Shown here in pieces: positions 1,888 to 64,000 of a stretch of DNA of 64,000 nt. This DNA is from Bdellovibrionota bacterium (lineage in GTDB: Bacteria > Bdellovibrionota > Bacteriovoracia > Bacteriovoracales > Bacteriovoracaceae): assembly GCA_040387275.1 (NCBI GenBank), contig JAZKDZ010000002.1:390480-454479 (forward strand). The letters run 5' to 3'. The position numbers were made by a program, and so were the translations under genes. The notes beneath the pieces were generated by a model that worked only from the letters and a program-made list of their open reading frames with translations, had not been told where the DNA came from and made no database searches. Each line of letters begins with the position of its first letter. Position 1 is the first letter of the stretch.

Positions 1888-2752
1888 AAAGGCAGAATTT
1901 ATTTACGACTGGATTGCCACTTTGATCAGTGGAAATAGAAGTCATCTGAGTTGTGTCCATACAGTCATCACTCTTTCCCGGATAGACGAGAACAAAGCGT
2001 TTCTCATCTTTGGAAGCGAAGATCGCCGGAAGTTTTGATTTGAGAGATTCGTGCTCAAGAAGTGGTTTCATCTCATCGAGAGTTCCCTGGAAAACATGCT
2101 TCCGGAGAATTTCAATTTCCACCCAGCGCACTTCTTTTGCCCATGATGGGATCTGATTTCTGATCTGGGCGGGAAGAGCAGAAACGGCCTTCGTCACGTA
2201 ATTGATGGTGTTCACCTTCTTCTCATCCTGAGTGAAGATCGGTTTTACGTAACGGGTGGTAGAAAAATGCTGTGAGAAAACATCTCCGCGATTTTCAACG
2301 ATCGTGTGACAGGCGTAACAGGCATCCTGCGTGATTTTCGGGTCTTCGTTAAAGGTCTTACCTTCCGGATCGAAAAGCGCGTATCCCCAGCCATTGGTCG
2401 AAGCATAGGCCTTGCGATTTTTTACCATCAACTGATAACGGCGGATTCCTTTCGGCACAACAGAACTGATGAACTGAGGATCAACACCGGTATGAATTCC
2501 GGTTTTTGCGAAAACTGAACCTTCCGGATAATCCGTCTTCCCTTCTTTCAAGGCTTTCATCGCTATGGGATTAGCATAGGTAATCCGCATCTCTCCCGTG
2601 TCCTTACGAAAGCGAATGGTGACGAGTTCCCATTTCTCAGGAAAGTTTTTGAAAGATTTCCAAGCAATGCCATTTATCTCATCTTTGCCGGAAAAATCCG
2701 GTGACGCAAAAGACTGGCCTGCGATAACAAGGAGAAATAGAAGTGTTTTCAT
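1880..2752 (-). CDS. Cytochrome P460-family protein (secreted haem c protein)
   Basis: Signal peptide MKTLLFLLVIAGQSFA, and a single CxxCH haem-binding motif (CYACH) near the C-terminal third, as in cytochrome P460/c'-beta. The start is placed at the internal Met preceding the signal peptide. Confidence 0.5.
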   Translation of the reverse strand: MKTLLFLLVIAGQSFASPDFSGKDEINGIAWKSFKNFPEKWELVTIRFRKDTGEMRITYANPIAMKALKEGKTDYPEGSVFAKTGIHTGVDPQFISSVVPKGIRRYQLMVKNRKAYASTNGWGYALFDPEGKTFNEDPKITQDACYACHTIVENRGDVFSQHFSTTRYVKPIFTQDEKKVNTINYVTKAVSALPAQIRNQIPSWAKEVRWVEIEILRKHVFQGTLDEMKPLLEHESLKSKLPAIFASKDEKRFVLVYPGKSDDCMDTTQMTSISTDQSGNPVVNKFCLYD

Positions 2753-2869
2753 TGGGACAAGTATATTACGGACGCCGGCAGGAAAAGAAGGAAAGAATAC
2801 CTGTCTGTAACAGTCGGTAGAGTGACGAACTCTTTCTGTCATGAAATAGTTTTTGAAAACGGAGAAATA

Positions 2870-13257: not shown

Positions 13258-13593
13258 AAACCCCCCTTAGACATTAGGAAGACAGAGTCCAGAGTAGGCC
13301 CACAAGAAAATGATTGGAAAATGAAATTAATCTCGAGATTTTATCTGAGCATTCATGGGGCAAAATTCACCACACAAAACTGATTTAATATTGAGATTAT
13401 GAGCGGGATTTCGGAGGCTTTGCCATTCGCTCTTCATTGGCATTGAGCTTGCTTTTAATGAGGTCAGAGCAGGAGGGTGGAACTCCAAAAAAGTTCATCA
13501 AATTCCCCGGGAGAAAAGGTTAACCTCTTTATCTCCTTCCCCCACGACCCGCCACACCTATCAATGTTCCACTCTCCCTGCAGGTTACATTGA

Positions 13594-14751
13594 TTATTCT
13601 AAGGCACTCCGGAGATCCGCAATAAGATCTTCGGAGTGTTCTAATCCCACCGAAATTCTCAGCGTATAAGGATTCATTCCCAGTTGATTCAATTCTTCAG
13701 GCGATAAATCATCTCCAAAAAACATGGCCGTGGGACAGATGAGTGTTTCGGCAGAACCGACACTGGCCGTGAACTGAATAAGCTTCACACGATGGCAGAT
13801 TTCCAGGGCCGTTCCCAAGGAAGGATCAACTTCAAACGCGAGAATGCCACCCATGGAACTCATCTGCGAACGTGCGAGTTCATGCCCTGGATGGGAAGGA
13901 AGTCCGGGATAAAGAACCCGTTTTACTTTGGGAAACTTTTCCAGAAACTCAGCGAGAGTTTTTGCTGTTGCTGCCTGCCTTTCATAACGAAGATGATAAG
14001 TTTTCAACCCTCGTTGCACGAGATAAGCGGCGTGAGGATCGAGAGTGGCTCCAAGATTGATCGTCATCTGACGGATCTCATGAATCACAGCTTTTTTCCC
14101 GGCAATAGAACCTGCAATCACATCGCCATGTCCGTTAGCGTATTTCGTCAGACTCTGAAGGAAGACATCAACACCAAGATCGGTATGCTGATGAGGGCCT
14201 CCGAAAGTTGCATCCATCATGACAAGAACGTTATGTTTTTTTGCGATACTCACAATCTTTTTAATGTCGGCAATGTTCAGATGAGGGTTGGTGGGACTTT
14301 CAAAATAAATAATCTTCGTCTGAGGAGTGATGGCCGCTTCAAGCTTTGCCAGTTCAGAAAGTCCCAGAACAGTGGCCGTCATGCCGAATCTCTTCAATGT
14401 CGTGCGCGTGAAAATTCTCGCCGGACGGTAAGTCTCCATGAACGTGATGAGATGATCACCGGTTTTCATGAGACCAAGAATGGCGCCCGTAATAGCGGCC
14501 ATACCACTTCCTACAACAATACAATCTTCTGTCTTCTGAAGTTCAGCGAGTGAAAGCTCAAGCTGTCTCAGCGTGGGATTTGAGACACGGGTATAAGCAA
14601 ACTGAGAACTCAGAGGAACGTCCTCACTCAGCCGGAATTTTGCTGTCTGATAAATGGGAGAAAGGATGGGATAGTTGCCCTCAGGAAGTGGCACTTCCGG
14701 AGAATGATTAAGCCGGGTAACTGGATGAAGTTTGTTGCGGTCTGAATCCAT
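13594..14751 (-). CDS. PLP-dependent Cys/Met-metabolism enzyme (cystathionine gamma-synthase / beta-lyase / methionine gamma-lyase family)
   Basis: The family motifs DVIAGSIAGKK and SLTKYANGHGDV (PLP-lysine) are present. The start is placed at the internal MDSDRNK. Confidence 0.75.
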   Translation of the reverse strand: MDSDRNKLHPVTRLNHSPEVPLPEGNYPILSPIYQTAKFRLSEDVPLSSQFAYTRVSNPTLRQLELSLAELQKTEDCIVVGSGMAAITGAILGLMKTGDHLITFMETYRPARIFTRTTLKRFGMTATVLGLSELAKLEAAITPQTKIIYFESPTNPHLNIADIKKIVSIAKKHNVLVMMDATFGGPHQHTDLGVDVFLQSLTKYANGHGDVIAGSIAGKKAVIHEIRQMTINLGATLDPHAAYLVQRGLKTYHLRYERQAATAKTLAEFLEKFPKVKRVLYPGLPSHPGHELARSQMSSMGGILAFEVDPSLGTALEICHRVKLIQFTASVGSAETLICPTAMFFGDDLSPEELNQLGMNPYTLRISVGLEHSEDLIADLRSALE

Positions 14752-14899
14752 GAGCACCTCAAAAAAAATTAATGTCTCAATCTTAAGACGGGGCCAAATG
14801 CAAGGCAAGGAAATCAAAGACTCTTCAAGCTTCCTTCACAACCGGAACATCTTTTCGCAACATCCCGGGAGTATGATTTCCTTCACGAGAGAGGTTATC

Positions 14900-15344: not shown

Positions 15345-16040
15345 ATGAGTTCACCTGCTATCCTCATGATTGAGGACGATATCGAAATTTATAATCTGGT
15401 CAAAGGTTTCGCCAAGGAACTTCAGATTAACTATGCCTCCAGTCTCGCCGAAGCTTCGCGCTGGCTGGCCAACAATACGCCTGAACTGGTTCTTCTGGAT
15501 ATCGAGCTTCCCGATGGGAATGGCGTCGACTTTCTCATGAAAAACCGCGCGCTTTTTGAAGATTCGAGAATTGGTGTCATCATGCTCACCTCTCACGGTG
15601 AAATCGGAACGAAGCTCGAGAGTTTTGAGCTGGGTGTTCTGGATTATGTTCAGAAGCCTTTCATTCCGATGGAACTTATCGCCCGCATCCGCGCGAACCT
15701 CAGAAAAGTGAATCCAAGAAGCAAAGATCTCGTGAAAAAAGATATTGTCGTTAAGTTCAGTTCCAACCAGGTCTTCGTTGGCCCGAAAGATGAGCAGAAA
15801 TCTGTCGAGCTATCTCCCCTGGAATTCAAGCTTCTCGTTTTCTTCATGGAAAATGAAGATCACGTCTATACCCGTGAACAACTCATGGATATGGTCTGGG
15901 GAAATGAGTTTGAAGTGACTGACCGGAACGTTGATCAGCACATTTCAAAACTCCGGAAAAAAATCAATTCACAGTATTACCACGTCAAGACTGTCCACGG
16001 GACCGGTTATTCGTGGGTGAAGTACGATCGCCCGTCTTAA
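15345..16040 (+). CDS. OmpR/PhoB-family DNA-binding response regulator
   Basis: Receiver domain (ILMIEDD...LVLLDIELPDGNGVDF...VIMLTSHGE) plus a C-terminal winged-helix Trans_reg_C (LSPLEFKLLVFFMENEDHVYTREQLMDMVWG...VDQHISKLRKKI...VHGTGY). Confidence 0.85.
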   Translation: MSSPAILMIEDDIEIYNLVKGFAKELQINYASSLAEASRWLANNTPELVLLDIELPDGNGVDFLMKNRALFEDSRIGVIMLTSHGEIGTKLESFELGVLDYVQKPFIPMELIARIRANLRKVNPRSKDLVKKDIVVKFSSNQVFVGPKDEQKSVELSPLEFKLLVFFMENEDHVYTREQLMDMVWGNEFEVTDRNVDQHISKLRKKINSQYYHVKTVHGTGYSWVKYDRPS

Positions 16041-16332
16041 GTCCGGCGAGATAGAAAAAATCTTCCTGAAACTCATAGGCCTCTCTTTCAAAGCTGATGT
16101 TCCGGTAGGCCTCATCATGAGTGAGTCCTTCGCGCCTTCCTCTGAAATATTCAACGAGATACAGCAGATAAAATCGTGCCACCCCTTCACGTCTCAATTG
16201 CTCGAGGTGAATTTGTTCATGATTCATGACAATGGGATGGGGATCGCGGTCTGCGTAGAGTAAGAACGGCCACAGGACAATTCCGTTGATGCGGAAATAA
16301 CTCAGTGGCCGGATATTTTTAAGGACGATCAT
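15985..16332 (-). CDS. Small HExxH-motif protein (putative zincin-like), hypothetical
   Basis: 115 aa with an HEQIHLEQ motif. It overlaps convergently with the 3' end of the response-regulator gene, so the true extent is uncertain. Confidence 0.3.
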   Translation of the reverse strand: MIVLKNIRPLSYFRINGIVLWPFLLYADRDPHPIVMNHEQIHLEQLRREGVARFYLLYLVEYFRGRREGLTHDEAYRNISFEREAYEFQEDFFYLAGLKTGDRTSPTNNRSRGQS

Positions 16333-16338
16333 GCATCA

Positions 16339-16935
16339 TTATTCCCGGGTGAAAATAATGATAGAACGGGAAGCTTTACCCAGTCCTTCTTTTTTATCCC
16401 CTTTTTCGGGAATACCAGCTTCATCCAGTGATTCCTGAATGCGGGCGGCTTCATTCGGAACTATCCGCTTAAGACCAGAAGGTCTTTCGGCCATGCTGAT
16501 GGGATCAATATTGATATCTCTTTTCTTATCCTGAATGAATTTTGTCAGGACATCATTTCTTCTTTTCGCAAGCTCACGCTGGTCATCTGAGAGCTCCCCT
16601 TTTTTTTCATCCGGCATTTCACTATCGGCCCACGTAATAAGCTTCACAACTTTATCAGAACCTTCTTTCCCGGCCCTTTCCAGAACTTGTGCAAGTGAGC
16701 GACGGGCATCACTGTTCAGTTCGGTGGATCCCTTTTTAAAGCGGATTTCTGATACGTAATTGGATTCCATTTCGTTGGCCAGTTGTCTGGCATCGAAGCT
16801 TATTCCTGAAGCTTTTGTGGCCGATCCGATAATCTTCGGAGTTTTAGGAGGAGATTTCTTCGACGGATCTTCCGGTGCCTTGGTAGAGCATGCCGAGAGC
16901 GCCATGACGGCCGTAAGTGCTAATACGTATTTCAT
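16339..16935 (-). CDS. Lipoprotein, hypothetical
   Basis: MKYVLALTAVMALSAC lipobox. The start is set at the internal Met after a basic stretch in the longer ORF. Confidence 0.45.
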   Translation of the reverse strand: MKYVLALTAVMALSACSTKAPEDPSKKSPPKTPKIIGSATKASGISFDARQLANEMESNYVSEIRFKKGSTELNSDARRSLAQVLERAGKEGSDKVVKLITWADSEMPDEKKGELSDDQRELAKRRNDVLTKFIQDKKRDINIDPISMAERPSGLKRIVPNEAARIQESLDEAGIPEKGDKKEGLGKASRSIIIFTRE

Positions 16936-16936
16936 G

Positions 16937-18052
16937 TTAATCCTCTTTCTTATCTTCTTTTTTTTCATTGTCGCGTTCCGTTTCCTTGGCCTCATTCTTA
17001 GCTTCCTGCGCCTGCATGGACATGTTGCCATCCACTCCCGGTGAAAGTTCCTGGTCAAATCCATGCTCGATGACATTGCTCACGGCTGCACTCTGATCAA
17101 TGGCGAATTTTTTTCCGTCAAATGAGAATGGAACTTTCGTTGCTATTGTTCTGTCTCTCTTCGCCTCCAGAATCCAGTTTCCGACGGCTCCTGCCACCTC
17201 AATTAACCAGTGCTTTGCTCCCTTGAAATTCTCATCACGACGGATGAAATCGAGATCTTCCACAAATGGTTTCACGTAACCGCGGATTTTTCCTTCCTCT
17301 GACTTTACTTCGGAGTAAAGATCAAAAATTCCTTTGGTAAACGTGAGCGGAACTTTATTCAGAAGAAATCTGTTCATGGATGATAAGGTGAATCCCTGCA
17401 TCTGAGCATCGACATCCCATTCCAGAGGATCGGCCAGTAAGTTAGCACTTCCGATCGCCTTGAAACTTGATGTTCCACTACCCTTTCCCAGAACGTGAAA
17501 GAAAGATCTCGGTGTATCGGAATCAGCAAAAAGATTTGTCACACGACCTTCAATTCCTGAAAGACGAAAGGGCCCCTGATTCGTGTAGGCCTTGTCTGTA
17601 GGAAGAATAACATCCACATTTTTCCAGTCGAGCCGGGAAATTCTGAGTGGCGGTTGCTTCTTGGGTGCAGATTTATCTTCAGGGGGGAGAGACTTTTTAA
17701 TAGCGGCAGGAATTCTTTCATCAAATGTGAAAGTCACTCCATTCACCATTGCATCGGCCATGAGATTTCCCTTGAAAATCTCTCTCCAGGCCAGAGAGAC
17801 ATCGGCCTCTTTCACCTGCAGGAATTCCTTATCGTTTTTTTTAAGTTTCATGGTCATATCTTCCACGCCGAAAGCTCCGCGGAAGATCCCAATATTGAGC
17901 CCATCCACATGTCCCTCAATCTCAGGAGAGAAAGTCGCGAGTTTTTTATTGATAAAACCCAGAAGGAAGGGCTGGAGAGCAATTCTCAAAGCAACTAAAA
18001 AGAGTAGAACCCCGAGTGGGATGATGATTTTTTTCTTTTTAAACCACTTCAT
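16937..18052 (-). CDS. Membrane-anchored protein, DUF748/AsmA-like (putative), with KE-rich C-terminal tail
   Basis: An N-terminal TM helix (IIIPLGVLLFLVALRIAL) is followed by a ~300-aa periplasmic domain and a highly charged tail. The family assignment is tentative. Confidence 0.35.
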   Translation of the reverse strand: MKWFKKKKIIIPLGVLLFLVALRIALQPFLLGFINKKLATFSPEIEGHVDGLNIGIFRGAFGVEDMTMKLKKNDKEFLQVKEADVSLAWREIFKGNLMADAMVNGVTFTFDERIPAAIKKSLPPEDKSAPKKQPPLRISRLDWKNVDVILPTDKAYTNQGPFRLSGIEGRVTNLFADSDTPRSFFHVLGKGSGTSSFKAIGSANLLADPLEWDVDAQMQGFTLSSMNRFLLNKVPLTFTKGIFDLYSEVKSEEGKIRGYVKPFVEDLDFIRRDENFKGAKHWLIEVAGAVGNWILEAKRDRTIATKVPFSFDGKKFAIDQSAAVSNVIEHGFDQELSPGVDGNMSMQAQEAKNEAKETERDNEKKEDKKED

Positions 18053-18058
18053 AAAACC

Positions 18059-19036
18059 TCACGCATGCTCAAAATAGTAAACGGAAAACAACTGATCTTT
18101 ATCCTGCCAGGATTTTTTGAGAACAAGTCCTGCCTGCTCTCCCAGTTCGGTAAATTCCTTCACGCTGTATTTATAAGAATTTTCCGTATGAATCGACTCC
18201 CCTTCGTGGAAGCGGAACACTGTCTGATTCACACGAACAAGTTGTGGCATCCGGCTGATCAGGTGCATTTCGATTCTTCCCTTCTCTTCATTGTAAATAG
18301 CTTCATGGCGGAAATTTTCCGGAACGAAAGTGGCGTTTGCCTCACGATTCAGGCGATAAAGAAGATTGAGATTAAACGCAGCTGTTACTCCTTCCGGATC
18401 GTTGTAGGCCAGTCTCAGAATTTCCGGATCTTTTTTTAAATCCACACCAATGAGAATGCCTCCGCCTTTGGAAAGCGCAGCCGCTTCCTTCAGAAAATCT
18501 CTGGCTTCATCGGGATCGAGATTTCCGATCGTGGAGCCCGGAAAGAAAACAATCTTCTTCCCTGGACGCGACTCGACTGTGAGGGGAAGAGAGAGTGATT
18601 TTGTAAAATCCGCGCACACCGGGTAGAGATCCATTCCCGGAAATTCGTCAATGAGCTCGCGGCTTGTGCGAAGAAGAATCTCCCGGGAGATTTCTAAGGG
18701 AACATAACTTCTTTTTCCATGGAGCTCTTTCAGGAGTATCCGCACTTTCTCGGCCGATCCACTTCCCGGTTCAATGATCATGACATCCTCGCCAATCATG
18801 TCGGCCATCTCCCGGGCATTATCCCGGAGAATTTTTGTTTCGGTTCTCGTGGGGTAGTAGGAAGGAAGAAGACAGATCTCTTCAAAAATCTCTGAGCCGG
18901 TTTTGTCATAGAGAAATTTTGCGGGAAGTGTTTTCTGACTTTTTGAAAGTCCCATAATCACTTCCGAGACGAGATTTCTCGACGGAGGAATGTGATCAGC
19001 AGCTTCTAATGAAAAGACTTCTTCTGTTTCAGTCAT
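18059..19036 (-). CDS. egtD: L-histidine N-alpha-methyltransferase EgtD (ergothioneine biosynthesis)
   Basis: EgtD signatures FLYDKTGSEIFEEI, YYPTRTE, EPGSGS, FFPGSTIGN and ENSYKY. The start at 19036 overlaps the egtB stop as ATGA. Confidence 0.8.
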   Translation of the reverse strand: MTETEEVFSLEAADHIPPSRNLVSEVIMGLSKSQKTLPAKFLYDKTGSEIFEEICLLPSYYPTRTETKILRDNAREMADMIGEDVMIIEPGSGSAEKVRILLKELHGKRSYVPLEISREILLRTSRELIDEFPGMDLYPVCADFTKSLSLPLTVESRPGKKIVFFPGSTIGNLDPDEARDFLKEAAALSKGGGILIGVDLKKDPEILRLAYNDPEGVTAAFNLNLLYRLNREANATFVPENFRHEAIYNEEKGRIEMHLISRMPQLVRVNQTVFRFHEGESIHTENSYKYSVKEFTELGEQAGLVLKKSWQDKDQLFSVYYFEHA

Positions 19037-20304
19037 GTCAGATCCTTCGCAAGACGGACACCGCCGTATTGCCATCTCATATGTGGGTAATAAAAATTTC
19101 TGTAGGTATGCCGGTAATGGGAAGAATCTGTGAGGCACGATCCTCCACGGAGAACCATCTGGTTCACCATGAATTTTTCATTGTACTCAGCAAGGTCTCC
19201 CGGATAGTTTTCGTATCGTGGATAAGGAAGATAGGCACTTTGGGTCCACTCCCAGACTGTTCCGTGAATGCCGGCGAATTCTTCGCCATCGTCCACTATC
19301 ATGGGTTCATAGATACCGTTTTCAAGAAAGTTACCGGAAATCTTTTCGCGTTTTGAGGCCACTTCCCATTCAAATTCCGTTGGAAGTCTTGCTCCCCTGA
19401 ATCGGGCAAAGGCATCGGCTTCATAATAAGAAAGGTGGCAGACAGGTGCACTCATATCTAATGGCACCATTCCCCAGAGAGTAAAGTGCCACCACTCTCC
19501 ATCGCGCTCTTCCCAATAGAGTGGATTTTTCCAGCCTTCGCGATTGATGTGATCCCAACCATCAGACAGCCAGTACCTCGGATTCAAATATCCGCCTTCC
19601 TGAACGAATTGCAAAAACTCTTCGTTGGTTACAGGATGACTCATCAGCATGAAGCTATCGATCCATTTCTTATGTCCGTCACTTTCGTTATCGTAATGGA
19701 ATGATGGTTCTGAAAGAGAAACACCAATATTCACCAGTCCCGAAGGAATGTTGATCCACGAAGGTGAAACATGTTCATGGACAGTCGTGAGCGCGCGCGC
19801 TTTATATCTGGGTCTCATCGGGTTTTCGAAAAAATTCCGCTTGATGTCCATCAGAAGAAGTTCCTGATGTTGCTGTTCGTGATTGATACCCATTTCCATG
19901 ATTTTCCGGACGGGTTCAATCTGATCAGTTGTGAGATTGTCGAGAAACTCCACCACTCTTAATCGTATTTCCAGGCGCCATTCGCGGATTTCCATCACAC
20001 CCGGCCGGGAAATTGATCTCCGGGCAGTCTTGGGAATGTGATTACCGATTCCCTTGTAATAAGAATTGAACATGAATCCGAATTCCGGTGTGACTTCATA
20101 CTTTGTGAATTTCCCGAGGAGAAACTGGGCATAGAACCAGCTGGTATGTCCCAGATGCCACTTTGGTGGTGACGTATCTTCTGTCACCGAAAGAGCGCAA
20201 TCTTCCGGTGAAAGTGGATCGCACAAACCGTCAGTGATTTCCTGAGAACGGATGAACCTTTCTTTTAATTCCCCGACTTCGCGGGTGAGTCCGACGATTT
20301 CCAT
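19033..20304 (-). CDS. egtB: Hercynine oxygenase / sulfoxide synthase EgtB (DinB_2 + FGE-sulfatase domains)
   Basis: The N-terminal DinB-like part carries an iron-binding His motif (INHEQQHQELLL). The C-terminal FGE-like domain ends ...RGGSCLTDSSHYRHTYRNFYYPHMRWQYGGVRLAKD. Confidence 0.85.
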   Translation of the reverse strand: MEIVGLTREVGELKERFIRSQEITDGLCDPLSPEDCALSVTEDTSPPKWHLGHTSWFYAQFLLGKFTKYEVTPEFGFMFNSYYKGIGNHIPKTARRSISRPGVMEIREWRLEIRLRVVEFLDNLTTDQIEPVRKIMEMGINHEQQHQELLLMDIKRNFFENPMRPRYKARALTTVHEHVSPSWINIPSGLVNIGVSLSEPSFHYDNESDGHKKWIDSFMLMSHPVTNEEFLQFVQEGGYLNPRYWLSDGWDHINREGWKNPLYWEERDGEWWHFTLWGMVPLDMSAPVCHLSYYEADAFARFRGARLPTEFEWEVASKREKISGNFLENGIYEPMIVDDGEEFAGIHGTVWEWTQSAYLPYPRYENYPGDLAEYNEKFMVNQMVLRGGSCLTDSSHYRHTYRNFYYPHMRWQYGGVRLAKDLT

Positions 20305-21797
20305 TATGTCTCCGGCAATTCCGAAATAGCGGGACCTTCAATAGGTGTACCATGAGTGTTAAAACGTGATCCGTGTGCCGGGCAATCCCAGGTTTTCTCG
20401 ATGTCGTTCCAGTGAACAATTCCCCCGAGGTGAGTGCACACGGCAGATTTTCTTTCGAAGTTATCCCCCTGCTCGTGATAAACACATGCTTTCGTAAGTC
20501 CGTGTCTCATGAGACATCCTGTATCTTCAGGAATTTCATCTTCACTTTTCACTTCACTGCCGGTCATCCAGTCAGCGTATTGAATCGCCACATTCACATT
20601 CTCTTTCACAAACTCCGTCATGTTTCTGAGTGGAGGACGTTTCGGATCATATATATCAGCGAGAGGATGAAATCGTTTTTCAATCAGATTCGGAATAATG
20701 TGCGAGGCAATCACGGCACTCGTCATCCCGCTACCCGAGTATCCGGTCGCGATATAGATATTTCTGTCGGTGCCAGGATTTTTTCCGATGTAACCGATCA
20801 CATCTGCTGGTTCAAAAACCTGGCCGGACCAGCGGTCAGTCACAACTCCCACGCAATCAAAATTCTTTCTTGTCCAGCTTTCAAGTTTAGTGAAGGGATT
20901 TTCATCCGGAGTCTGACCCACTCGATGATCTGCGCCACCCACAATCAATTTATTCTCGTGGACGCGGACATAGTGGTAAGGGTCCTCAGTATCCCACAGG
21001 AGAACATTTTCCACTTCACGAGTGAGCTCAAGAGCAATGGAATAAGTTCTGTAAGCATGCTGTTTAGTATGGATATGGAATCTGGTATTGATTGGTGTAT
21101 CCGTTGCGACAACTACATAGTCGGCCTGAATATCAAAATTGTGCTCAGTCCGGATGCGGGAAAGATCCGGCGTGGGATTTTCAATTTCCGTCACACGGGT
21201 ATTTTCATGAATGGTCACTCCAAGATCCACCAGGCATTCGATCAGCCCTTTCATGTATTTCAGAGGATGAAACTGGGCCTGAGCAGAAAATCTGAGCCCT
21301 GCTTTTTGATTCTTTAACAGTGGTGTATGCAAAACGGGGTCGAGCATGATGCCGCATTTTTTTCCCGCCTCATGCTCTTTTGAAAGATAGTTGTCACTGA
21401 CATTTTCTCCGAGGAAGAGATAACCATCCACGCGTTTAAAATCGCAGTGAATGTCTTCCTGTCCGACAATGCCTTCAATCGAATCAATGGCCCCTCTGTG
21501 AGCTTCCAGAAACTTCCGGACAGTTTCGAGATCATGCATTTTCAGAAGATGTGAAAAATCCTCTTCCAGCTGACAGGATAAATGGGCGGTGGTCCTTCCA
21601 CTCTGACCAGAACCAAGGCGGAATGATTCGAGAAGTGTGACTTTTTTCCCGCGCTTGGCGAGTTCATAAGCAATGGAGACTCCCGAGAGTCCCCCGCCGA
21701 TAATACACACTTCCGTTCTCTCATCTTTTTTGATCTCAGAAAAAACAGGGAGACTCAAGGTCTCCCATACAGAATCTGTTCTGTCTTTTATGCTCAT
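20304..21797 (-). CDS. FAD-dependent oxidoreductase (DAO-like) fused to C-terminal Rieske [2Fe-2S] domain
   Basis: The N-terminus VCIIGGGLSGVSIAYELAKRGKKVTLLE is a GxGxxG FAD-binding fold. The C-terminus CTHLGGIVHW...CPAHGSRF is a Rieske CxH...CxxH motif. Its stop overlaps the egtB start by 1 nt (TAATG). Confidence 0.8.
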   Translation of the reverse strand: MSIKDRTDSVWETLSLPVFSEIKKDERTEVCIIGGGLSGVSIAYELAKRGKKVTLLESFRLGSGQSGRTTAHLSCQLEEDFSHLLKMHDLETVRKFLEAHRGAIDSIEGIVGQEDIHCDFKRVDGYLFLGENVSDNYLSKEHEAGKKCGIMLDPVLHTPLLKNQKAGLRFSAQAQFHPLKYMKGLIECLVDLGVTIHENTRVTEIENPTPDLSRIRTEHNFDIQADYVVVATDTPINTRFHIHTKQHAYRTYSIALELTREVENVLLWDTEDPYHYVRVHENKLIVGGADHRVGQTPDENPFTKLESWTRKNFDCVGVVTDRWSGQVFEPADVIGYIGKNPGTDRNIYIATGYSGSGMTSAVIASHIIPNLIEKRFHPLADIYDPKRPPLRNMTEFVKENVNVAIQYADWMTGSEVKSEDEIPEDTGCLMRHGLTKACVYHEQGDNFERKSAVCTHLGGIVHWNDIEKTWDCPAHGSRFNTHGTPIEGPAISELPET

Positions 21798-22453
21798 AGA
21801 TGTTTCTCGAGGTTTGCCCTTCTCTCCTGATCTCTGATCCGGCTGATATCGGATGCTCCCAGATCAGCTTTCGAAAGATCTGATGCTGAATCAGAAGAAT
21901 CGAACGTTTCAAAAGAAGTAATTGTTTCTTCGCCCAGAACACCGGGTTTCAGAGAACGTCTCTGAACATCCACGATCGAGCGGTCTGCTTCGAGATGATT
22001 TTTTTTCCAGACGTAAGCGGCACCGAGAAATGCTGCTGAAAGAATCAGGTGAATGGAGTGATCCATTGTTCCGAATTCGAGAATGTTGGGAATCACACGA
22101 AGAAGATTCTGATCAGCGGCCATGTGTCCGACTCCCGGATAGCCAGGTTGTCCGATCACAAATCCTGCGACACCCAGAAGTCCGTAAACCACACCAAAGG
22201 CAACGGCAAAGGTGTAGGCCTTGCGGGAGTCGTCAGCGTAACCAAAGCTCAATGCGAGAGCTCCTGAGACTAAGTGAATCAGGTTGTGCGCCCATGATAA
22301 GTGCATGGACATAAGTCCAGGCATGATGATGCCTGCTAAACCAACTAAGACGAAGCCAGCGCCAAGAACGATGCAGGCCTTCTGGATGCTTGAGCGCGTG
22401 GCAAAAGCGGCCCGCGTATGTCGATGTCCGGTAGATTTCATTGTGGTGGCCAT
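21794..22453 (-). CDS. DUF4383-family membrane protein with D/S-rich acidic C-terminal tail
   Basis: Four TM helices with conserved His residues (SWAHNLIHLVSG, the DUF4383 pattern). Its stop overlaps the start of the FAD/Rieske gene by 4 nt. Confidence 0.45.
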   Translation of the reverse strand: MATTMKSTGHRHTRAAFATRSSIQKACIVLGAGFVLVGLAGIIMPGLMSMHLSWAHNLIHLVSGALALSFGYADDSRKAYTFAVAFGVVYGLLGVAGFVIGQPGYPGVGHMAADQNLLRVIPNILEFGTMDHSIHLILSAAFLGAAYVWKKNHLEADRSIVDVQRRSLKPGVLGEETITSFETFDSSDSASDLSKADLGASDISRIRDQERRANLEKHL

Positions 22454-22565
22454 AAAAACACTCCTTGTTTTTAATCAGGTGTTTCATCCCCTTAAAAGCA
22501 AGGCCCGGGCCAAAGATCGTGAGGGAAAACCCCCTGAAGACGTTAAGGCCGTAGATTTGTGTGGA

Positions 22566-26618: not shown

Positions 26619-27572
26619 ATGCCTCAATACCTAAAAAAACTTTTTCAAAAACAGACTACGTACGGTGCCATTGATCTGGGATCAAATGCCATGCGCTCAC
26701 TTATCGCCCGCAGAAACGGTGATGAGCTGACAGTGATAAAATCGTTCCGCGTGCCTCTTCGTTTAGGCGAAGATGTTTTCAACGGGGGCTTCCTCTCCCC
26801 TGCCAAGATGGAAGAGACGGAGAACGCCTTTATTGAGCTTTTCCACTCGTTTGCCGCCTATGGAGTGACTGAGGTCAGGGCGATGGCCACATCGGCCATG
26901 AGAGACGCTATAAACGGTCCTGAGCTCACGGAAAGAATCCTCAAATCGACCGGCATTCAGATCGAAATTATCCGTGGCAAAGAAGAAGCGCGATTTATCT
27001 GTGATGCCGTCAAGTCTCAGCTGAATTTTGGCAATTACGATGTGCTTCTGATGGATATCGGCGGAGGCTCAACTGAACTCACACTGATCAGTGAAGGAAA
27101 AATCGTCGGGGTGAAAAGTTTTAACGTCGGAACAGTCCGACTTCTTCATTACAAAAACCAGGTTGAGCTCGAGAAGAAAATCAATTTTGAGCTTGAACGG
27201 ATGCTGACCTTTATTAAAGAGAATTTCGGAAAAAGAAAGCCGCAATATTTCGTTGGTACGGGAGGAAATCTCCGCCGTATCGGAAAGATCAGAAAGAAAA
27301 CTCTGGGGAGACCAACCTCGCAGCTCGCGACGTACTCAGAGATCAGTCACATGGAAGATATTATTCTCTCCATGTCTTATGTTGAAAGGATTCGAGGACT
27401 CGAGCTCACGGAAAACCAGGCCGACGTGATCCTGCCCGCGACCATGCTCACTCAGAAACTCATGCAGAATTTGAAACTGACGGAAATTCTTCTTCCGAAG
27501 GTGGGCCTCAAGGAAGGAATTCTCCTTTCCATGCAGGAAGACCCACCGAAGAAATTTAATCTACTCGACTGA
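26619..27572 (+). CDS. Ppx/GppA-family phosphatase (exopolyphosphatase/guanosine pentaphosphatase N-terminal domains only)
   Basis: AIDLGSNAMRSLIAR...EVRAMATSAMRDA...LLMDIGGGSTEL, the actin-like ATPase fold of Ppx/GppA. At 317 aa it lacks the C-terminal HD domain. Confidence 0.8.
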   Translation: MPQYLKKLFQKQTTYGAIDLGSNAMRSLIARRNGDELTVIKSFRVPLRLGEDVFNGGFLSPAKMEETENAFIELFHSFAAYGVTEVRAMATSAMRDAINGPELTERILKSTGIQIEIIRGKEEARFICDAVKSQLNFGNYDVLLMDIGGGSTELTLISEGKIVGVKSFNVGTVRLLHYKNQVELEKKINFELERMLTFIKENFGKRKPQYFVGTGGNLRRIGKIRKKTLGRPTSQLATYSEISHMEDIILSMSYVERIRGLELTENQADVILPATMLTQKLMQNLKLTEILLPKVGLKEGILLSMQEDPPKKFNLLD

Positions 27573-37260: not shown

Positions 37261-37755
37261 TCAGGACTTAAGTCCCTTGATCGACTTAGGAGAGAAGAGA
37301 AGTTCGAGCGTAAAGCCATCCCACATGCCACCTTCCAGAACACAGATTCCGCCTTTTTTTAGACTGATGAAATCATGTTCAGGATGAAGAGACAGAATAC
37401 TCGCGATCGCGCGGGTGAGATGAGGATCATGTCCGACAAAAGCATAGGTGCCATCGTTCGGAAGAAAAGAGATGTATTCAACCAGATGGGCCGGGTCATC
37501 CAGAATATCGAGATCCGACATCATCTCGAGATTGGCCGCGGGATAGTGTTCCCATAAAATTTCCGCCGTCTGTACGGCACGGGCAAGCGGAGAAGTGAAA
37601 ATCACATCCACGCGCTTCTGGGTCTTACGAAAAGTCTTGAACGTGCGCCCGAGATCTTTGATCCCTTCGATCGTGAGTTCCCGCAGAAAATCCTTGTCCT
37701 GATTAAGATCGAAGTGACCTTCGGCCAGACCATGGCGGACAAAAATGAGTTTCAT
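37261..37755 (-). CDS. sixA: SixA-type phosphohistidine phosphatase (histidine phosphatase superfamily)
   Basis: The N-terminal MKLIFVRHGLAEGH (RHG catalytic motif) and the 164-aa size match SixA. The start overlaps the ppk1 stop by 4 nt. Confidence 0.7.
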   Translation of the reverse strand: MKLIFVRHGLAEGHFDLNQDKDFLRELTIEGIKDLGRTFKTFRKTQKRVDVIFTSPLARAVQTAEILWEHYPAANLEMMSDLDILDDPAHLVEYISFLPNDGTYAFVGHDPHLTRAIASILSLHPEHDFISLKKGGICVLEGGMWDGFTLELLFSPKSIKGLKS

Positions 37756-39875
37756 GTGACCTTCTCGCGGGCGATAGTCACTTTCATCATTTCCTGATGA
37801 GTCCCTTTTTCTTCCTCACCTTCGGCCGGAACTTTTTGCTTATAGGATCCGTCAGGGGAAAGAGTCCAGGCCAGGCGATTATCTTTCAGGATGATCTCGA
37901 GAAACTCCCCGAGTTTTTCCCTAAGCCGGACATCCATAATAGGAATGATAAGCTCAACCCGGTTATGCAGGTTTCTGTGCATCCAGTCCGCTGAACCAAT
38001 GTAGTAAGTGCCGCGATTGGCCTCTTCTTCTCCGCTTGCGAAGAAGAAGATCCGCGAATGCTCGAGGAAGCGTCCGATAATCGAAATCACTTCAATATTT
38101 TCTGATAAACCCGGAATCCCGGGCTTTAAGCAGCAGAACCCGCGGATGATAAGTGTGATTTTCACTCCGGCGGAACTTGCTTCATAAAGTAGCTCAGTAA
38201 TCACCTCATCTTCGAGCGAGTTCATCTTCGCGATGATGCGCGCTTTTTTTCCGGCCTTGGCATTACTAATTTCATCGCGGATTTTATTCATGAAAGTGGA
38301 TTTCATGTTAATCGGTGCCACGAGAATTTCTTTGTAATCAGTCTTAAGCGAAGATCCCGTGAGGTAATTGAAAACTTCCGCCACTTCTCCTGCCACTTTC
38401 TGATTACAGGTAAGAAGACCCAGATCGGTATAGAGATTTGAAGTCTGCGAGTGATAGTTACCTGTTCCCACGTGAACATAACTCATGATCTCGCCGTCAC
38501 TCTCCTGTCTGACAACAAGAGTGGTCTTCGTATGAGTCTTGAGACCCAGAATTCCGTACACAACGTGAACGCCGGCATCTTCGAGTTTTTGTGCCCACAC
38601 AATGTTTCTCTGTTCATCAAAACGTGCTTTGAGCTCAACCAGCGCCACAACCTGCTTTCCTTTCTCTGCTGCTTTAATCAGTGAGCGGATGAAAGGAGAA
38701 TTGTCGCCGGTACGATAGAGAGTCATCTTGATCGCGAGAACATGGGGATCTTCTGCGGCCGAGGAAACAAATTTTTCCACAGTTCCGGAAAAACTCTCAT
38801 ACGGATGGTGAACCAGAAGATCACCCTGCCGGATAAGTGAGAAGATCGACGTATTTTCTGCGAAGGCCTTCGGAATAATGGGAGACCATGGCTTGAATTT
38901 CAGCTGAGGGAGATCGAGATCAACAATCGGCTTCAGAATTCCGAAGTCGATCGGGAAATCCATTTCATAAACGTCTTCATCGATAATCTCGAGAGACTCT
39001 TTTAAAAAGTTAGTGAGATTGGGATCCGTATCACGGTGAATCTCAAGCCGTACACATTCAGCAAGACGACGCTCTTTAATTCCTTCTTCCACGAGGATCA
39101 GAAGATCCTGCGCCTCATCTTCACGATGATCGACGTCTGCGTTTCTTGAAACACGGAAAGGAACAGTCTGCTGGATTTCCATGCCGGGATAAAGAGTCGC
39201 GAGATTACTCCGCACGGTCGTAACGGTTGTGACGAAACGGTATTTCTTATCCCCATCTCCGCGCGGAAGTAGCATGAGTCCGGGAATGGCCTCAGGAATT
39301 TTTACCCGCGAGAAGAGAATTGTCTCAGTCTGAGGATTTTTGAGAATCATCCCGAGTGAGTAGGAAAGATTTGAGATAAAGGGAAACGGATGTCCGGGAT
39401 CAACTGAAAGTGGAGTAAGAACCGGATAAATCTTCCGGCGGAAAATTCCGTTACAAAACTCCTGGTCTTCAGCTCCCAGATCTTCGTAGTTATAAACGTA
39501 GATATCATTCCGCTGAAGTTCACCGATCAACTGGAGATAAATCGCCCGCTGAGTTTCGAGGTCTTCATTGATATGCTTTCTGATTCCTTCAAGCTGCTCA
39601 GTGACAGATAGCCCATCCACCGAACGGTGAGAAATCCCTGAACCCAGAAGATGCTTTAAGTATCCAATCCTCTTCATGACGAATTCATCGAGGTTCGATG
39701 AGAAGATAATCAGGAAGCGCAGGCGTTCGAGAAGCGGATTACGCTTATCTGCGGCCTCGTGGAGAACCCTGCGATTGAACTGAAGCCACGAGACATCCCG
39801 GTTCAGGAAGTGCGTGGGATCAACGTTAAAATTGATCTTCTTGGGGCTTCTATTGGGGTTTCTGCGTTTTCTCAT
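37752..39875 (-). CDS. ppk1: Polyphosphate kinase 1
   Basis: 707 aa with the PPK1 N-terminal motif ...FLNRDVSWLQFNRRVLHEA...NLDEFVMKR and two PLD-like C-terminal domains (HTKTTLVVR...). Confidence 0.9.
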   Translation of the reverse strand: MRKRRNPNRSPKKINFNVDPTHFLNRDVSWLQFNRRVLHEAADKRNPLLERLRFLIIFSSNLDEFVMKRIGYLKHLLGSGISHRSVDGLSVTEQLEGIRKHINEDLETQRAIYLQLIGELQRNDIYVYNYEDLGAEDQEFCNGIFRRKIYPVLTPLSVDPGHPFPFISNLSYSLGMILKNPQTETILFSRVKIPEAIPGLMLLPRGDGDKKYRFVTTVTTVRSNLATLYPGMEIQQTVPFRVSRNADVDHREDEAQDLLILVEEGIKERRLAECVRLEIHRDTDPNLTNFLKESLEIIDEDVYEMDFPIDFGILKPIVDLDLPQLKFKPWSPIIPKAFAENTSIFSLIRQGDLLVHHPYESFSGTVEKFVSSAAEDPHVLAIKMTLYRTGDNSPFIRSLIKAAEKGKQVVALVELKARFDEQRNIVWAQKLEDAGVHVVYGILGLKTHTKTTLVVRQESDGEIMSYVHVGTGNYHSQTSNLYTDLGLLTCNQKVAGEVAEVFNYLTGSSLKTDYKEILVAPINMKSTFMNKIRDEISNAKAGKKARIIAKMNSLEDEVITELLYEASSAGVKITLIIRGFCCLKPGIPGLSENIEVISIIGRFLEHSRIFFFASGEEEANRGTYYIGSADWMHRNLHNRVELIIPIMDVRLREKLGEFLEIILKDNRLAWTLSPDGSYKQKVPAEGEEEKGTHQEMMKVTIAREKVT

Positions 39876-62073: not shown

Positions 62074-62151
62074 AGGTGTCCAATAATAACACACAGGGGA
62101 GTTTTTTCTCAAGTTATTGACCCTACTAGGGGCCCGGGGTACCGTCGATTT

Positions 62152-63926: not shown

Positions 63927-64000
63927 TGGAACAAATTGTAATATATAAGGAACTACGGCTTCTTCACCCAGGAAGTTTTTCTCTGAATAGAAAAAATTAA

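What the first reader, a model, noticed from the sequence alone, without database searches (positions are those of the whole stretch)
18059..22453. Four-gene translationally coupled operon: DUF4383 membrane protein, FAD-oxidase fused to Rieske domain, EgtB and EgtD
The ergothioneine genes egtB and egtD are unambiguous. They are fused into one operon with a DAO-type FAD oxidoreductase carrying a C-terminal Rieske [2Fe-2S] domain and with a His-rich DUF4383 membrane protein. The junctions all overlap: TAATG between the oxidase and egtB, ATGA between egtB and egtD, and a 4-nt overlap between the DUF4383 gene and the oxidase.

No egtA, egtC or egtE is present, which implies a cysteine-using EgtB route. 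To my knowledge the FAD/Rieske protein has no assigned role in ergothioneine metabolism. One hypothesis is that it replaces the PLP C-S lyase EgtE, by oxidative deamination of the cysteinyl moiety of hercynyl-cysteine sulfoxide. Another is that it makes or recycles an ergothioneine-derived redox product, with the DUF4383 protein as membrane partner or exporter.
Basis: partly seen in the sequence, partly recalled or inferred. Interest (0 to 1): 0.75.

Follow-up and report, generated by a model that had tools for sequence, protein, structure and literature searches.

The report
Ergothioneine operon with two accessory redox genes
A predatory-bacterium relative (Bacteriovoracaceae) carries the two core genes for the antioxidant ergothioneine in one tightly packed operon with a membrane protein and a flavin/iron-sulfur enzyme of unknown function, apparently driven by a sigma-54-type promoter; the extra enzyme is probably a dispensable add-on, not the missing pathway step.

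Summary
Four overlapping minus-strand genes encode a DUF4383 membrane protein, a DAO-type FAD enzyme with a C-terminal Rieske domain (FR), EgtB and EgtD.

- **EgtB type.** It is closest to the cysteine-using Chloracidobacterium enzyme (type II).
- **Missing pathway genes.** No EgtA, EgtC or EgtE homologue was found among the larger window ORFs scanned.
- **Conservation.** All 17 Bacteriovoracia genomes recovered through FR show the same gene order where their contigs reach, and the overlapping junctions recur across them. A sigma-54-type -24/-12 element lies in front of the operon in 21 of 22 loci.
- **Against FR replacing EgtE.**
  - Peredibacter sp. HCB2-198 and two metagenomic lineages have DUF4383-EgtB-EgtD without FR, and they nest inside the FR-bearing clade.
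  - Of 143 FR loci from other phyla, only one (a Verrucomicrobium) has adjacent egtBD.
  - The FR copies linked to egt share 63 family-wide near-invariant (≥95% conserved) residues with the unlinked ones.

Best reading: this is a sigma-54-controlled ergothioneine operon that has recruited a membrane protein and an optional amine dehydrogenase of unknown substrate. The C-S lyase step is supplied in trans. A direct ergothioneine-related role for FR or DUF4383 is not excluded.

The parts
22497..22512 (-). Sigma-54-type -24/-12 promoter element TGGCCCGGGCCTTGCT, 44 nt upstream of the DUF4383 ATG
   Evidence: The spacing of GG and GC matches the sigma-54 consensus TGGCAC-N5-TTGC. An exact TGGC-N7-TTGCT occurs once upstream of the first operon gene in 21 of 22 Bacteriovoracia loci. 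L164 has a one-mismatch version. Function is inferred, not shown.
21794..22453 (-). DUF4383-like membrane protein, 219 aa, with a conserved C-terminal hydrophilic tail
   Evidence: Pfam DUF4383, 32.4 bits. The AF2 model shows long helices at 22-43, 54-71, 76-100 and 129-168. H51, H56, H60 and H132 are invariant in 51 homologues. It sits directly upstream of FR or EgtB in 15 of the 17 FR-seeded loci (L003 lacks it, L008 is cut off) and in all 7 contigs recovered through DUF4383 itself. AAGGAG lies upstream of the ATG.
20304..21797 (-). FR: DAO-family FAD oxidoreductase (residues ~26-375) fused to a Rieske [2Fe-2S] domain (residues ~416-495)
   Evidence: Pfam DAO 172 bits and Rieske 31.5 bits. 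GxGxxG lies at 34-39, with CTHLGG at 454-459 and CPAHGS at 472-477. AF2 mean pLDDT is 91. The closest folds are sarcosine oxidase beta, glycine oxidase ThiO, L-proline dehydrogenase beta, MSOX and DMGDH at 13-19% identity. All specific NCBIfam enzyme models score far below their cut-offs.
19033..20304 (-). EgtB, type II (cysteine-dependent) hercynine sulfoxide synthase
   Evidence: TIGR03440 scores 495 bits against a cut-off of 360. The best PDB relatives are 8QF6, 6QKI and 6O6L (C. thermophilum EgtB) at 377 bits. WHLGH 49-53, FNSYY 79-83 and HEQQH 142-146 are conserved.
18059..19036 (-). EgtD, histidine N-alpha-methyltransferase (325 aa from ATG 19036)
   Evidence: TIGR03438 scores 384 bits against a cut-off of 291, and Pfam Methyltransf_33 scores 359 bits. 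The ATGA overlap with egtB is also found in egtBD pairs of other phyla.
16937..18052 (-). DUF748-like protein starting 6 nt after the egtD stop; probable variable tail of the transcription unit
   Evidence: Pfam DUF748 scores 49.7 bits, just under its cut-off of 50. It is present after egtD in the close relatives L001, L002, L004, L005, L165 and L166. More distant ones have a SOUL-domain gene, or a different order, in its place.
13594..14817 (-). Cys/Met-metabolism PLP enzyme (gamma-lyase / beta-lyase family): candidate in-trans C-S lyase, not part of the operon
   Evidence: Pfam Cys_Met_Meta_PP scores 361 bits. The best NCBIfam models are methionine gamma-lyase and cystathionine lyases, all below cut-off. 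It lies near the cluster only in L001, L002 and L004, so linkage is weak.

Best explanation
The region is a single transcription unit of a Bacteriovoracaceae (Bdellovibrionota) genome, apparently started by a sigma-54-type promoter. Its catalytic core is the oxygen-dependent, cysteine-type ergothioneine pathway.

Core pathway.
- EgtD trimethylates histidine to hercynine.
- The type II EgtB couples hercynine to free cysteine, giving hercynylcysteine sulfoxide.
- The final C-S cleavage is not encoded in the operon. It is most likely done in trans by a PLP lyase encoded elsewhere, as in other egtBD-only bacteria.

Accessory genes. Two genes were recruited in this lineage and are translationally coupled to the core.
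- The first is a DUF4383 membrane protein with conserved histidines. It is the more constant partner of egtBD.
- The second is FR, a glycine/sarcosine-oxidase-like flavoenzyme fused to a Rieske cluster. It probably oxidises a C-N bond of a still unknown amine and passes electrons one at a time through the [2Fe-2S] centre to an external acceptor, possibly a membrane one.
- FR is an optional module. It has been lost from the operon in the Peredibacter branch, and its family mostly lives elsewhere in other phyla, sometimes beside general-stress proteins. It therefore most likely shares regulation and physiological context (oxidative or general stress) with ergothioneine synthesis. It probably does not catalyse a step of it.

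Shown: gene identities, overlaps, conservation, the promoter motif, and the presence/absence pattern. Inferred: sigma-54 dependence, direction of electron flow, trans lyase, stress context.
For: - **Identities.**
- **Type II EgtB.** It scores 377 bits to C. thermophilum EgtB against 120 to the mycobacterial enzyme, and keeps the Tyr-Tyr and His motifs. CthEgtB uses L-Cys (PMC13645936).
- **Gene order.** All 17 FR-seeded Bacteriovoracia loci show the same order where the contig reaches. L003 lacks DUF4383; L008 is cut off at the start of FR, so its upstream gene is unknown.
- **Junctions.** DUF4383>FR overlaps by 4 nt in 17 of 18 loci, counting the window. FR>EgtB overlaps by 1 nt in 16 of 20.
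- **Variable flanks.** The upstream neighbour is an S8 protease in some loci and hemerythrin/Usp in others. The downstream neighbour is DUF748, SOUL or malate synthase.
- **Promoter.** The sigma-54 element is conserved in 21 of 22 loci and moves with whichever gene is first.
- **FR is dispensable in the cluster.** L164 (Peredibacter sp. HCB2-198, complete genome CP174607.1), L167/168/169 and L170 have DUF4383-EgtB-EgtD with 15-54 nt between DUF4383 and EgtB, and no FR within 6-8 kb. They nest inside the FR-bearing clade in an EgtB NJ tree.
- **Other phyla.** egtBD pairs in other phyla lack FR.
- **FR family mostly unlinked.** Only L059 has adjacent egtBD, and L162 has an EgtB 5.4 kb away, among 143 loci.
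- **No clade-specific pocket change.** There are 63 family-wide near-invariant (≥95% conserved) residues and only 9 clade-specific, mostly conservative differences.
- **Stress-type neighbours of FR elsewhere.** DUF892, YflT or Pyrid_ox_like occur in 12 of 143 loci, and 21 of 143 when Iron_permease, DUF326 and hemerythrin are added.
- **DUF4383 in the literature.** The only mention is a hypoxia-induced M. avium gene (PMC11876180).
Against: - The FR>EgtB 1-nt overlap persists down to about 52% protein identity. An independent FR-EgtB-EgtD juxtaposition with a 22-nt gap occurs in a Verrucomicrobium (L059) whose FR nests among Opitutaceae copies that lack egt. Both are what one expects of genes working on the same process, not only of co-regulation.
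- The 17/17 figure is conditioned on FR being present, because the scan was seeded with FR.
- Whether FR sits elsewhere in the Peredibacter genome could not be checked.
- Absence of adjacency in other phyla does not show that those organisms lack egtBD elsewhere.
- The stress-neighbour association is modest (8-15% of loci) and rests on family names.
- The sigma-54 reading rests on a motif. No enhancer-binding protein was found in the window.
- NJ trees carry no support values.
Confidence: 0.5

Rival explanations
1. FR, perhaps with DUF4383 as membrane anchor, acts on ergothioneine itself or on an oxidised form of it. It could link ergothioneine redox cycling to the respiratory chain, or oxidatively demethylate partly methylated histidines made by EgtD. 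On this view it is a true but non-essential pathway accessory.
For: - Translational coupling with EgtB is conserved.
- An independent FR-EgtB-EgtD juxtaposition occurs in L059, and looser linkage occurs in L162.
- The closest folds are N-methyl amino-acid and glycine oxidases.
- FR-containing phyla overlap with phyla that own type II EgtB: Verrucomicrobiota, Planctomycetota, Nitrospirota.
Against: - FR has been lost from the operon in the Peredibacter-like lineages.
- 141 of 143 FR loci in other phyla have no egtB within 6-8 kb.
- DAO-family enzymes are not known to reduce disulfides or sulfoxides (background knowledge).
- The same FAD + Rieske architecture is reported for B. subtilis YhfW (PMC7317962). 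To my knowledge that organism does not make ergothioneine. Family identity between YhfW and FR was not tested.
Confidence: 0.2
2. FR replaces the PLP C-S lyase EgtE by oxidatively deaminating the cysteinyl part of hercynylcysteine sulfoxide, so that the operon encodes a complete lyase-free route.
For: - No EgtE homologue was found in the operon or among the window ORFs scanned.
- FR belongs to the amino-acid-oxidising DAO superfamily.
- FR is tightly coupled to EgtB.
Against: - Intact DUF4383-EgtB-EgtD clusters without FR occur in the same lineage.
- egtBD-only pairs are seen in the three other-phylum loci sampled.
- The residues conserved across the FR family are the same in egt-linked and unlinked members.
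- Chemically, oxidising C-alpha removes the proton needed for beta-elimination of the sulfoxide. This is my inference, not a test.
- A Rieske centre has no obvious role in such a reaction.
Confidence: 0.08
3. FR supports EgtB indirectly. It would use its flavin and Rieske cluster to keep the non-haem iron of EgtB reduced, or to handle oxygen or iron together with the hemerythrin-like and SOUL-domain proteins found in the same cluster in relatives.
For: - In relatives the operon combines hemerythrin, DUF4383, FR, EgtB, EgtD and a SOUL haem-binding protein.
- EgtB is an Fe(II)/O2 enzyme (PMC13645936).
- The FR>EgtB overlap is conserved.
Against: - EgtB needs no external electrons for turnover (background knowledge of sulfoxide synthases).
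- DAO-family flavoenzymes are reduced by amine substrates, not by NAD(P)H.
- FR has been lost in lineages that keep EgtB.
- Most FR genes have no EgtB neighbour.
Confidence: 0.1
4. There is no functional relation. FR and DUF4383 are simply neighbours inherited vertically in a lineage with well-preserved local synteny.
For: The wider neighbourhood is also syntenic across the clade: isocitrate dehydrogenase, Ppx and the 115-aa HExxH protein. The association is essentially confined to one lineage.
Against: - The flanking genes are reshuffled while the core stays contiguous with conserved overlapping stop/start codons.
- A single conserved promoter precedes the block.
- An independent juxtaposition occurs in L059.
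Confidence: 0.1

Closest known systems
Type II (cysteine-dependent) EgtB + EgtD ergothioneine route, as in Chloracidobacterium thermophilum (PDB 6QKI, 6O6L, 8QF6)
   Same: EgtB aligns end to end with CthEgtB at 377 bits. It keeps the His ligand motifs and the FNSYY Tyr pair. egtB and egtD overlap by ATGA, as in egtBD pairs of other phyla. No egtA or egtC is present, and no egtE is in the cluster.
   Different: Here the pair is embedded behind two extra translationally coupled genes (DUF4383 and FAD/Rieske). It is preceded by a sigma-54-type promoter. The host is a Bdellovibrionota lineage for which the searchable literature reports no ergothioneine work.
Mycobacterial egtABCDE cluster
   Same: It has the same end product and the same EgtD step.
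   Different: Mycobacterial EgtB (type I) uses gamma-glutamylcysteine and needs EgtA, EgtC and EgtE. The window EgtB scores only 120 bits against it. No EgtA, EgtC or EgtE homologue was found among the window ORFs scanned.
Bacillus subtilis YhfW (FAD-linked oxidoreductase with C-terminal Rieske domain, function unknown; PMC7317962)
   Same: It has the same two-domain architecture as described in that paper, and its biochemical function is also unassigned.
   Different: YhfW is linked to competence in B. subtilis and is not next to ergothioneine genes.
DAO-family amine oxidases and dehydrogenases: glycine oxidase ThiO, sarcosine oxidase beta subunit, monomeric sarcosine oxidase, Pyrococcus L-proline dehydrogenase beta subunit, dimethylglycine dehydrogenase
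   Same: They share the fold (Foldseek E about 1e-20, TM to target up to 0.83), the GxGxxG motif, and a 'GRTTAH' segment that resembles (from memory) the ThiO GGRTTS region near the flavin.
   Different: Identity is only 13-19%. All specific NCBIfam enzyme models score far below their cut-offs. None of the solved relatives carries a fused Rieske domain. The substrate is unknown.
Sigma-54 (RpoN) dependent promoters
   Same: The element has TGGC-N7-TTGC with GG and GC ten bases apart, at a fixed short distance upstream of the first gene, and it is conserved across relatives.
   Different: No enhancer-binding activator was identified in the window, and there is no experimental start site.

Membership tests
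EgtD (L-histidine N-alpha-methyltransferase, TIGR03438) | Full-length match above the curated equivalog cut-off | tested here: met
   384.5 bits against a cut-off of 290.9; Pfam Methyltransf_33 scores 358.8 bits
EgtB (sulfoxide synthase, TIGR03440) | Full-length match above the curated cut-off, and better than the sister families SenA and OvoA | tested here: met
   495.5 bits against a cut-off of 360. SenA scores 309.9 (cut-off 420) and OvoA N-terminal 127 (cut-off 400)
EgtB type II (cysteine-using) | Closer to C. thermophilum EgtB than to mycobacterial EgtB; adjacent Tyr pair (FNSYY) and His iron-ligand motifs conserved | tested here: met
   377 bits to 6QKI/6O6L/8QF6 against 120 bits to 4X8B. 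WHLGH 49-53, FNSYY 79-83 and HEQQH 142-146 align with identical residues
EgtB type II (cysteine-using) | Uses free L-cysteine and hercynine to make hercynylcysteine sulfoxide | not testable with these tools
   Needs an enzyme assay; inferred from homology to CthEgtB (PMC13645936)
Complete ergothioneine pathway | A C-S lyase (EgtE/Egt2-type class-V PLP enzyme) encoded with the other genes | tested here: not met
   No protein with Aminotran_5 as its best family among the window ORFs scanned. Only a Cys_Met_Meta_PP enzyme lies 3.2 kb away, and it is linked in just 3 close relatives
DAO superfamily (PF01266) | N-terminal GxGxxG FAD-binding fold and full-length DAO domain | tested here: met
   172 bits over profile positions 2-349 of 353. 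G34, G36 and G39 are invariant. The fold matches ThiO/SoxB/MSOX
Any characterised DAO-family enzyme (ThiO, PuuB-like, pipecolate oxidase, DadA, SoxB, MnmC, and others) | Score above the curated equivalog cut-off | tested here: not met
The best is pipecolate oxidase at 73 bits against 600, then ThiO at 59 against 251.
Rieske [2Fe-2S] domain (PF00355) | CxH ... CxxH ligand boxes | tested here: met
   C454-T-H456 and C472-P-A-H475 are conserved at ≥95% family-wide. Pfam scores 31.5 bits against a cut-off of 20.3
bc1/b6f-type high-potential Rieske | Second cysteine in each box forming the disulfide (CTHLGC ... CPCHGS) | tested here: not met
   The first box is CTHLGG (or CTHLGA). The second is CPAHGS here and CPCHGS in many relatives. 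No disulfide pair is possible
DUF4383 (PF14325) | Match above the gathering score; small multi-helix membrane protein | tested here: met
   32.4 bits against 27. Long hydrophobic helices are predicted at high confidence. No solved structural relative was found
Sigma-54 promoter | -24 GG and -12 GC elements with canonical spacing, upstream of the first gene | tested here: met
   TGGCCCGGGCCTTGCT at 22512..22497. It is conserved in 21 of 22 related loci and moves with the first gene
Sigma-54 promoter | Dependence on RpoN and an enhancer-binding activator | not testable with these tools
   No Sigma54_activat protein among the scanned window ORFs. Needs transcript mapping and genetics

The most novel reading that the evidence does not exclude
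DUF4383 and the FAD/Rieske protein form a membrane-associated redox module that acts directly on ergothioneine or on a pathway intermediate. It might couple oxidation and re-formation of ergothioneine to the respiratory chain, or process hercynylcysteine sulfoxide without PLP. That would give two large uncharacterised families (DUF4383 and YhfW-like FAD-Rieske proteins) their first biochemical function. It would also add a new enzyme type to thiohistidine metabolism.
Probability: 0.2. Interest if true: 0.8.

Novelty: new variant of a known kind. Interest (0 to 1): 0.45.

Why it matters
- **Distribution.** Ergothioneine biosynthesis is well understood, but its regulation and accessory functions in bacteria outside actinomycetes are not. 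This locus places the cysteine-type pathway in predatory Bacteriovoracaceae.
- **Regulation.** It sits behind a conserved sigma-54-type promoter.
- **Leads for two unknown families.** The pathway is physically tied to two protein families with no known function. The natural presence/absence series gives ready-made genetic controls: both accessory genes present, FR missing in Peredibacter, DUF4383 missing in one MAG. These can test whether either protein affects ergothioneine production, export or recycling.
- **If there is no biochemical link.** The operon still marks FR and DUF4383 as members of an oxidative or general-stress programme.

Tried and rejected
- **Sequence search of the PDB with FR.** It found only separate DAO or Rieske proteins and no fused relative.
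- **Literature.** Searches for ergothioneine + Rieske, ergothioneine + Bdellovibrio, and DUF4383 gave nothing relevant, apart from the YhfW paper and one hypoxia table. One search was badly framed and returned unrelated flavoenzyme papers.
- **Is the Verrucomicrobial FR-egtBD link recurrent?**
  - A metagenome scan seeded with L059's FR found none of 48 loci with enough downstream sequence carrying an adjacent EgtB.
  - The three nearest EgtB relatives examined have plain egtBD.
- **DUF4383 as a constant partner of FR in other phyla.** A profile of the Bacteriovoracia DUF4383 proteins found none there.
- **Subfamily-specific active-site changes in egt-linked FR.** Only 9 mostly conservative differences were found.
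- **Inferring absence of FR from the whole Peredibacter genome via the 'longest contig' column.** Rejected. The window's own FR cluster lists a 2,976-bp contig, while its DUF4383 cluster lists 1.74 Mb. That column therefore does not cover all cluster members.
- **The Cys/Met PLP gene as a conserved operon neighbour.** Rejected. It is near the cluster in only 3 close relatives.

Full report
**1. Observation**

- DUF4383-like: 22453..21794.
- FAD/Rieske (FR): 21797..20304.
- EgtB: 20304..19033.
- EgtD: 19036..18059.

The junctions, read from the sequence, are ATGA, TAATG and ATGA. The mechanical ORF list begins EgtD at a GTG (19138). The ATG at 19036 gives the overlap and a 325-aa protein, which matches the 323-325 aa EgtD genes called in relatives.

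Pfam and NCBIfam confirm every assignment.

| Protein | Model | Score (bits) | Cut-off (bits) |
|---|---|---|---|
| DUF4383-like | Pfam DUF4383 | 32.4 | 27 |
| FR | Pfam DAO | 172 | 27.9 |
| FR | Pfam Rieske | 31.5 | 20.3 |
| EgtB | TIGR03440 | 495 | 360 |
| EgtD | TIGR03438 | 384 | 291 |

The selenoneine and ovothiol synthase models score below their cut-offs for EgtB. A fifth gene (DUF748-like, 18052..16937) starts 6 nt after the egtD stop.

The organism is a Bdellovibrionota/Bacteriovoracaceae MAG. The DUF4383 protein is 100% identical to one on a 1.74-Mb contig named that way, and the closest FR homologues carry Bacteriovoracaceae names.

**2. The ergothioneine core**

The window EgtB aligns over its full length with the Chloracidobacterium thermophilum enzyme (8QF6, 6QKI, 6O6L) at 377 bits. 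It scores 120 bits against the mycobacterial type I enzyme. WHLGH (49-53), FNSYY (79-83) and HEQQH (142-146) are identical to the C. thermophilum residues. CthEgtB couples hercynine to free L-cysteine (PMC13645936).

Pfam scans of 34 larger ORFs across the window found no glutamate-cysteine ligase, no class-II amidotransferase, and no protein whose best family is class-V aminotransferase. Several ORFs of 200 aa or more were not scanned.

The only PLP enzyme found is a Cys/Met-metabolism family protein at 14817..13594. It lies 3.2 kb from egtD and is near the cluster only in the three closest relatives.

egtBD pairs with the same ATGA overlap and no lyase gene next to them also occur in other phyla.

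**3. The FAD/Rieske protein**

- It has the GxGxxG motif (residues 34-39), a full DAO domain, and a C-terminal Rieske domain with CTHLGG (454-459) and CPAHGS (472-477).
- The boxes lack the cysteine pair that forms the disulfide of bc1/b6f Rieske proteins.
- The AF2 model is confident (mean pLDDT 91).
- Its nearest solved folds are sarcosine oxidase beta, glycine oxidase ThiO, Pyrococcus L-proline dehydrogenase beta, monomeric sarcosine oxidase and dimethylglycine dehydrogenase, at 13-19% identity.
- No solved protein has both domains.
- No curated enzyme model comes near its cut-off.

It is therefore an amine-oxidising flavoenzyme of unknown substrate. The fused one-electron centre argues for a dehydrogenase that hands electrons to a partner, not an oxidase. 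That last step is inference. The same architecture is described for B. subtilis YhfW, whose function is also unknown (PMC7317962).

**4. Conservation of the linkage**

*Scan seeded with FR.* A scan of one genome per species returned 80 loci.

- All 17 from Bacteriovoracaceae, Halobacteriovoraceae or Bacteriovoracia carry FR followed by EgtB, and EgtD wherever the contig reaches (FR 52-86% identical).
- DUF4383 lies upstream in 15 of them. L003 lacks it, and L008 is cut off at the start of FR.
- The overlaps are conserved. Counting the window, DUF4383>FR is -4 in 17 of 18 loci, FR>EgtB is -1 in 16 of 20, and EgtB>EgtD is -4 almost everywhere.
- The flanks vary. Upstream is an S8 protease in some loci and hemerythrin plus Usp in others. 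Downstream is DUF748, a SOUL-domain gene or malate synthase.

This survey was seeded with FR, so it cannot show clusters that lack FR.

*Search seeded with DUF4383.* This search found such clusters.

- Peredibacter sp. HCB2-198 (complete genome CP174607.1) has hemerythrin-DUF4383-EgtB-EgtD-SOUL with no FR.
- Two metagenomic lineages (L167-169 and L170) have Usp (divergent)-DUF4383-EgtB-EgtD-SOUL with no hemerythrin gene called, also with no FR.
- In these loci the gaps between DUF4383 and EgtB are 15-54 nt, and there is no FR within 6-8 kb.
- In an EgtB NJ tree these loci nest inside the FR-bearing clade. That suggests secondary loss. The tree has no support values.

**5. Outside the lineage**

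- Of the other 63 genome loci, only L059 (a Verrucomicrobiia MAG) has FR followed by EgtB (22-nt gap) and EgtD. A DUF326 gene sits upstream in place of DUF4383.
- L059's FR groups with Opitutaceae copies that lack egt genes.
- The three nearest relatives of its EgtB that were examined are plain egtBD pairs.
- A metagenome scan seeded with L059's FR gave 80 more loci. None of the 48 with enough downstream sequence has an adjacent EgtB, and one (L162) has an EgtB 5.4 kb away.
- The egt-linked FR proteins form one clade. They differ from the rest at only 9 mostly conservative positions and share 63 near-invariant (≥95% conserved) residues with them. There is no sign of a changed substrate pocket.
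- Recurrent neighbours of FR elsewhere are small proteins of the DUF892, YflT, Pyrid_ox_like, low-affinity iron permease and DUF326 families. The first three occur in 12 of 143 loci. That is a modest association.

**6. Promoter**

Aligning the regions upstream of DUF4383 revealed TGGCCCGGGCCTTGCT at 22512..22497. The GG and GC spacing is that of the sigma-54 consensus, and the element lies 44 nt before the ATG.

- The exact pattern TGGC-N7-TTGCT occurs once upstream of the first operon gene in 21 of 22 Bacteriovoracia loci.
- It lies before DUF4383 when that gene is first.
- It lies before the hemerythrin gene when that gene precedes DUF4383.
- It lies 133 nt before FR in L003, which has no DUF4383.
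- Peredibacter has a one-mismatch version.
- The pattern is expected 0.48 times per window by chance.
- It also precedes some non-egt FR genes, for example at -84 in two Bdellovibrio loci.

This defines the transcription unit and points to control by an enhancer-binding activator. None was found in the window.

**7. DUF4383**

The protein has four or five long helices. Histidines H51, H56, H60 and H132 are invariant, and the C-terminal tail is conserved. No solved structure resembles it. The only literature mention is a hypoxia-induced M. avium gene. It is the more constant companion of egtBD in this lineage.

**8. Interpretation**

The best-supported account is a sigma-54-controlled ergothioneine operon (type II EgtB + EgtD) with a trans-acting lyase.

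- DUF4383 and, optionally, FR have been added to it and are held there by translational coupling.
- FR most likely shares regulation and physiological context with ergothioneine synthesis and does not perform a pathway step.
- The EgtE-replacement idea is disfavoured by the natural FR-less clusters, by the family's distribution, by the unchanged conserved residues, and by chemistry. Oxidising C-alpha removes the proton needed for beta-elimination (my inference).
- A direct ergothioneine-related role is not excluded. The conserved FR>EgtB overlap and the independent Verrucomicrobial juxtaposition keep it alive, at roughly one chance in four when the EgtE-replacement and redox-accessory readings are summed.

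**9. Comparison and novelty**

The core is a new member of the known type II egtBD pathway in a new host lineage. The new variant consists of the accessory genes and the promoter. Interest is moderate. The locus does not reveal a new pathway step, but it offers a clean, naturally controlled system for assigning a function to two uncharacterised families.

Noticed in passing
window 13438-13453 (+): A second exact TGGC-N7-TTGCT match (TGGCATTGAGCTTGCT) lies in the intergenic region between the VTT-domain gene and the 3' end of the Cys/Met PLP gene. It points into the antisense of that gene. It may be chance, since 0.48 matches are expected per window.
   Followed up: partly
window 15985-16332 (-): A 115-aa protein contains an HExxH-like motif (HEQIH) and has no Pfam or NCBIfam match. 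It is conserved just downstream of the egt cluster in 14 of the 17 FR-seeded loci, and a gene of the same size is called at the same position in L165 and L166.
   Followed up: partly
window 16339-17076 (-) and 16937-18052 (-): The ORF list makes these two genes overlap by 140 nt. The lipoprotein-like sequence MKYVLALTAVMALSAC begins further in, so the true start of the downstream gene is probably near 16930. Relatives call a 198-aa gene here.
   Followed up: no
L006-L017, L164, L167, L170 (relatives): In more distant relatives the operon is preceded by a hemerythrin-domain gene and a divergent universal stress protein, and it is followed by a SOUL haem-binding-domain gene. The window has a divergent S8 protease and a DUF748 gene in those places.
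   Followed up: partly
L020, L059, L065, L099: A DUF326 (cysteine-rich) gene lies next to FR in four loci from other phyla: on the same strand just upstream in L020 and L059 (85 and 31 nt away), on the opposite strand 114 nt away in L065, and somewhere within L099 (position not determined). It is a second recurrent small partner of this enzyme family.
   Followed up: partly
window 1880-2842 (-), 37752-39875 (-), 26619-27572 (+): The window also encodes a cytochrome P460-domain protein, a 707-aa ORF that was not scanned against any library (possibly polyphosphate kinase; a guess from its size and position only), and a Ppx/GppA phosphatase.
   Followed up: no
window 47790-53624 (-): A very large ORF (1944 aa) was not analysed.
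   Followed up: no
window 62001-64000: GC content drops to 0.41 at the end of the window, against about 0.46 elsewhere.
   Followed up: no
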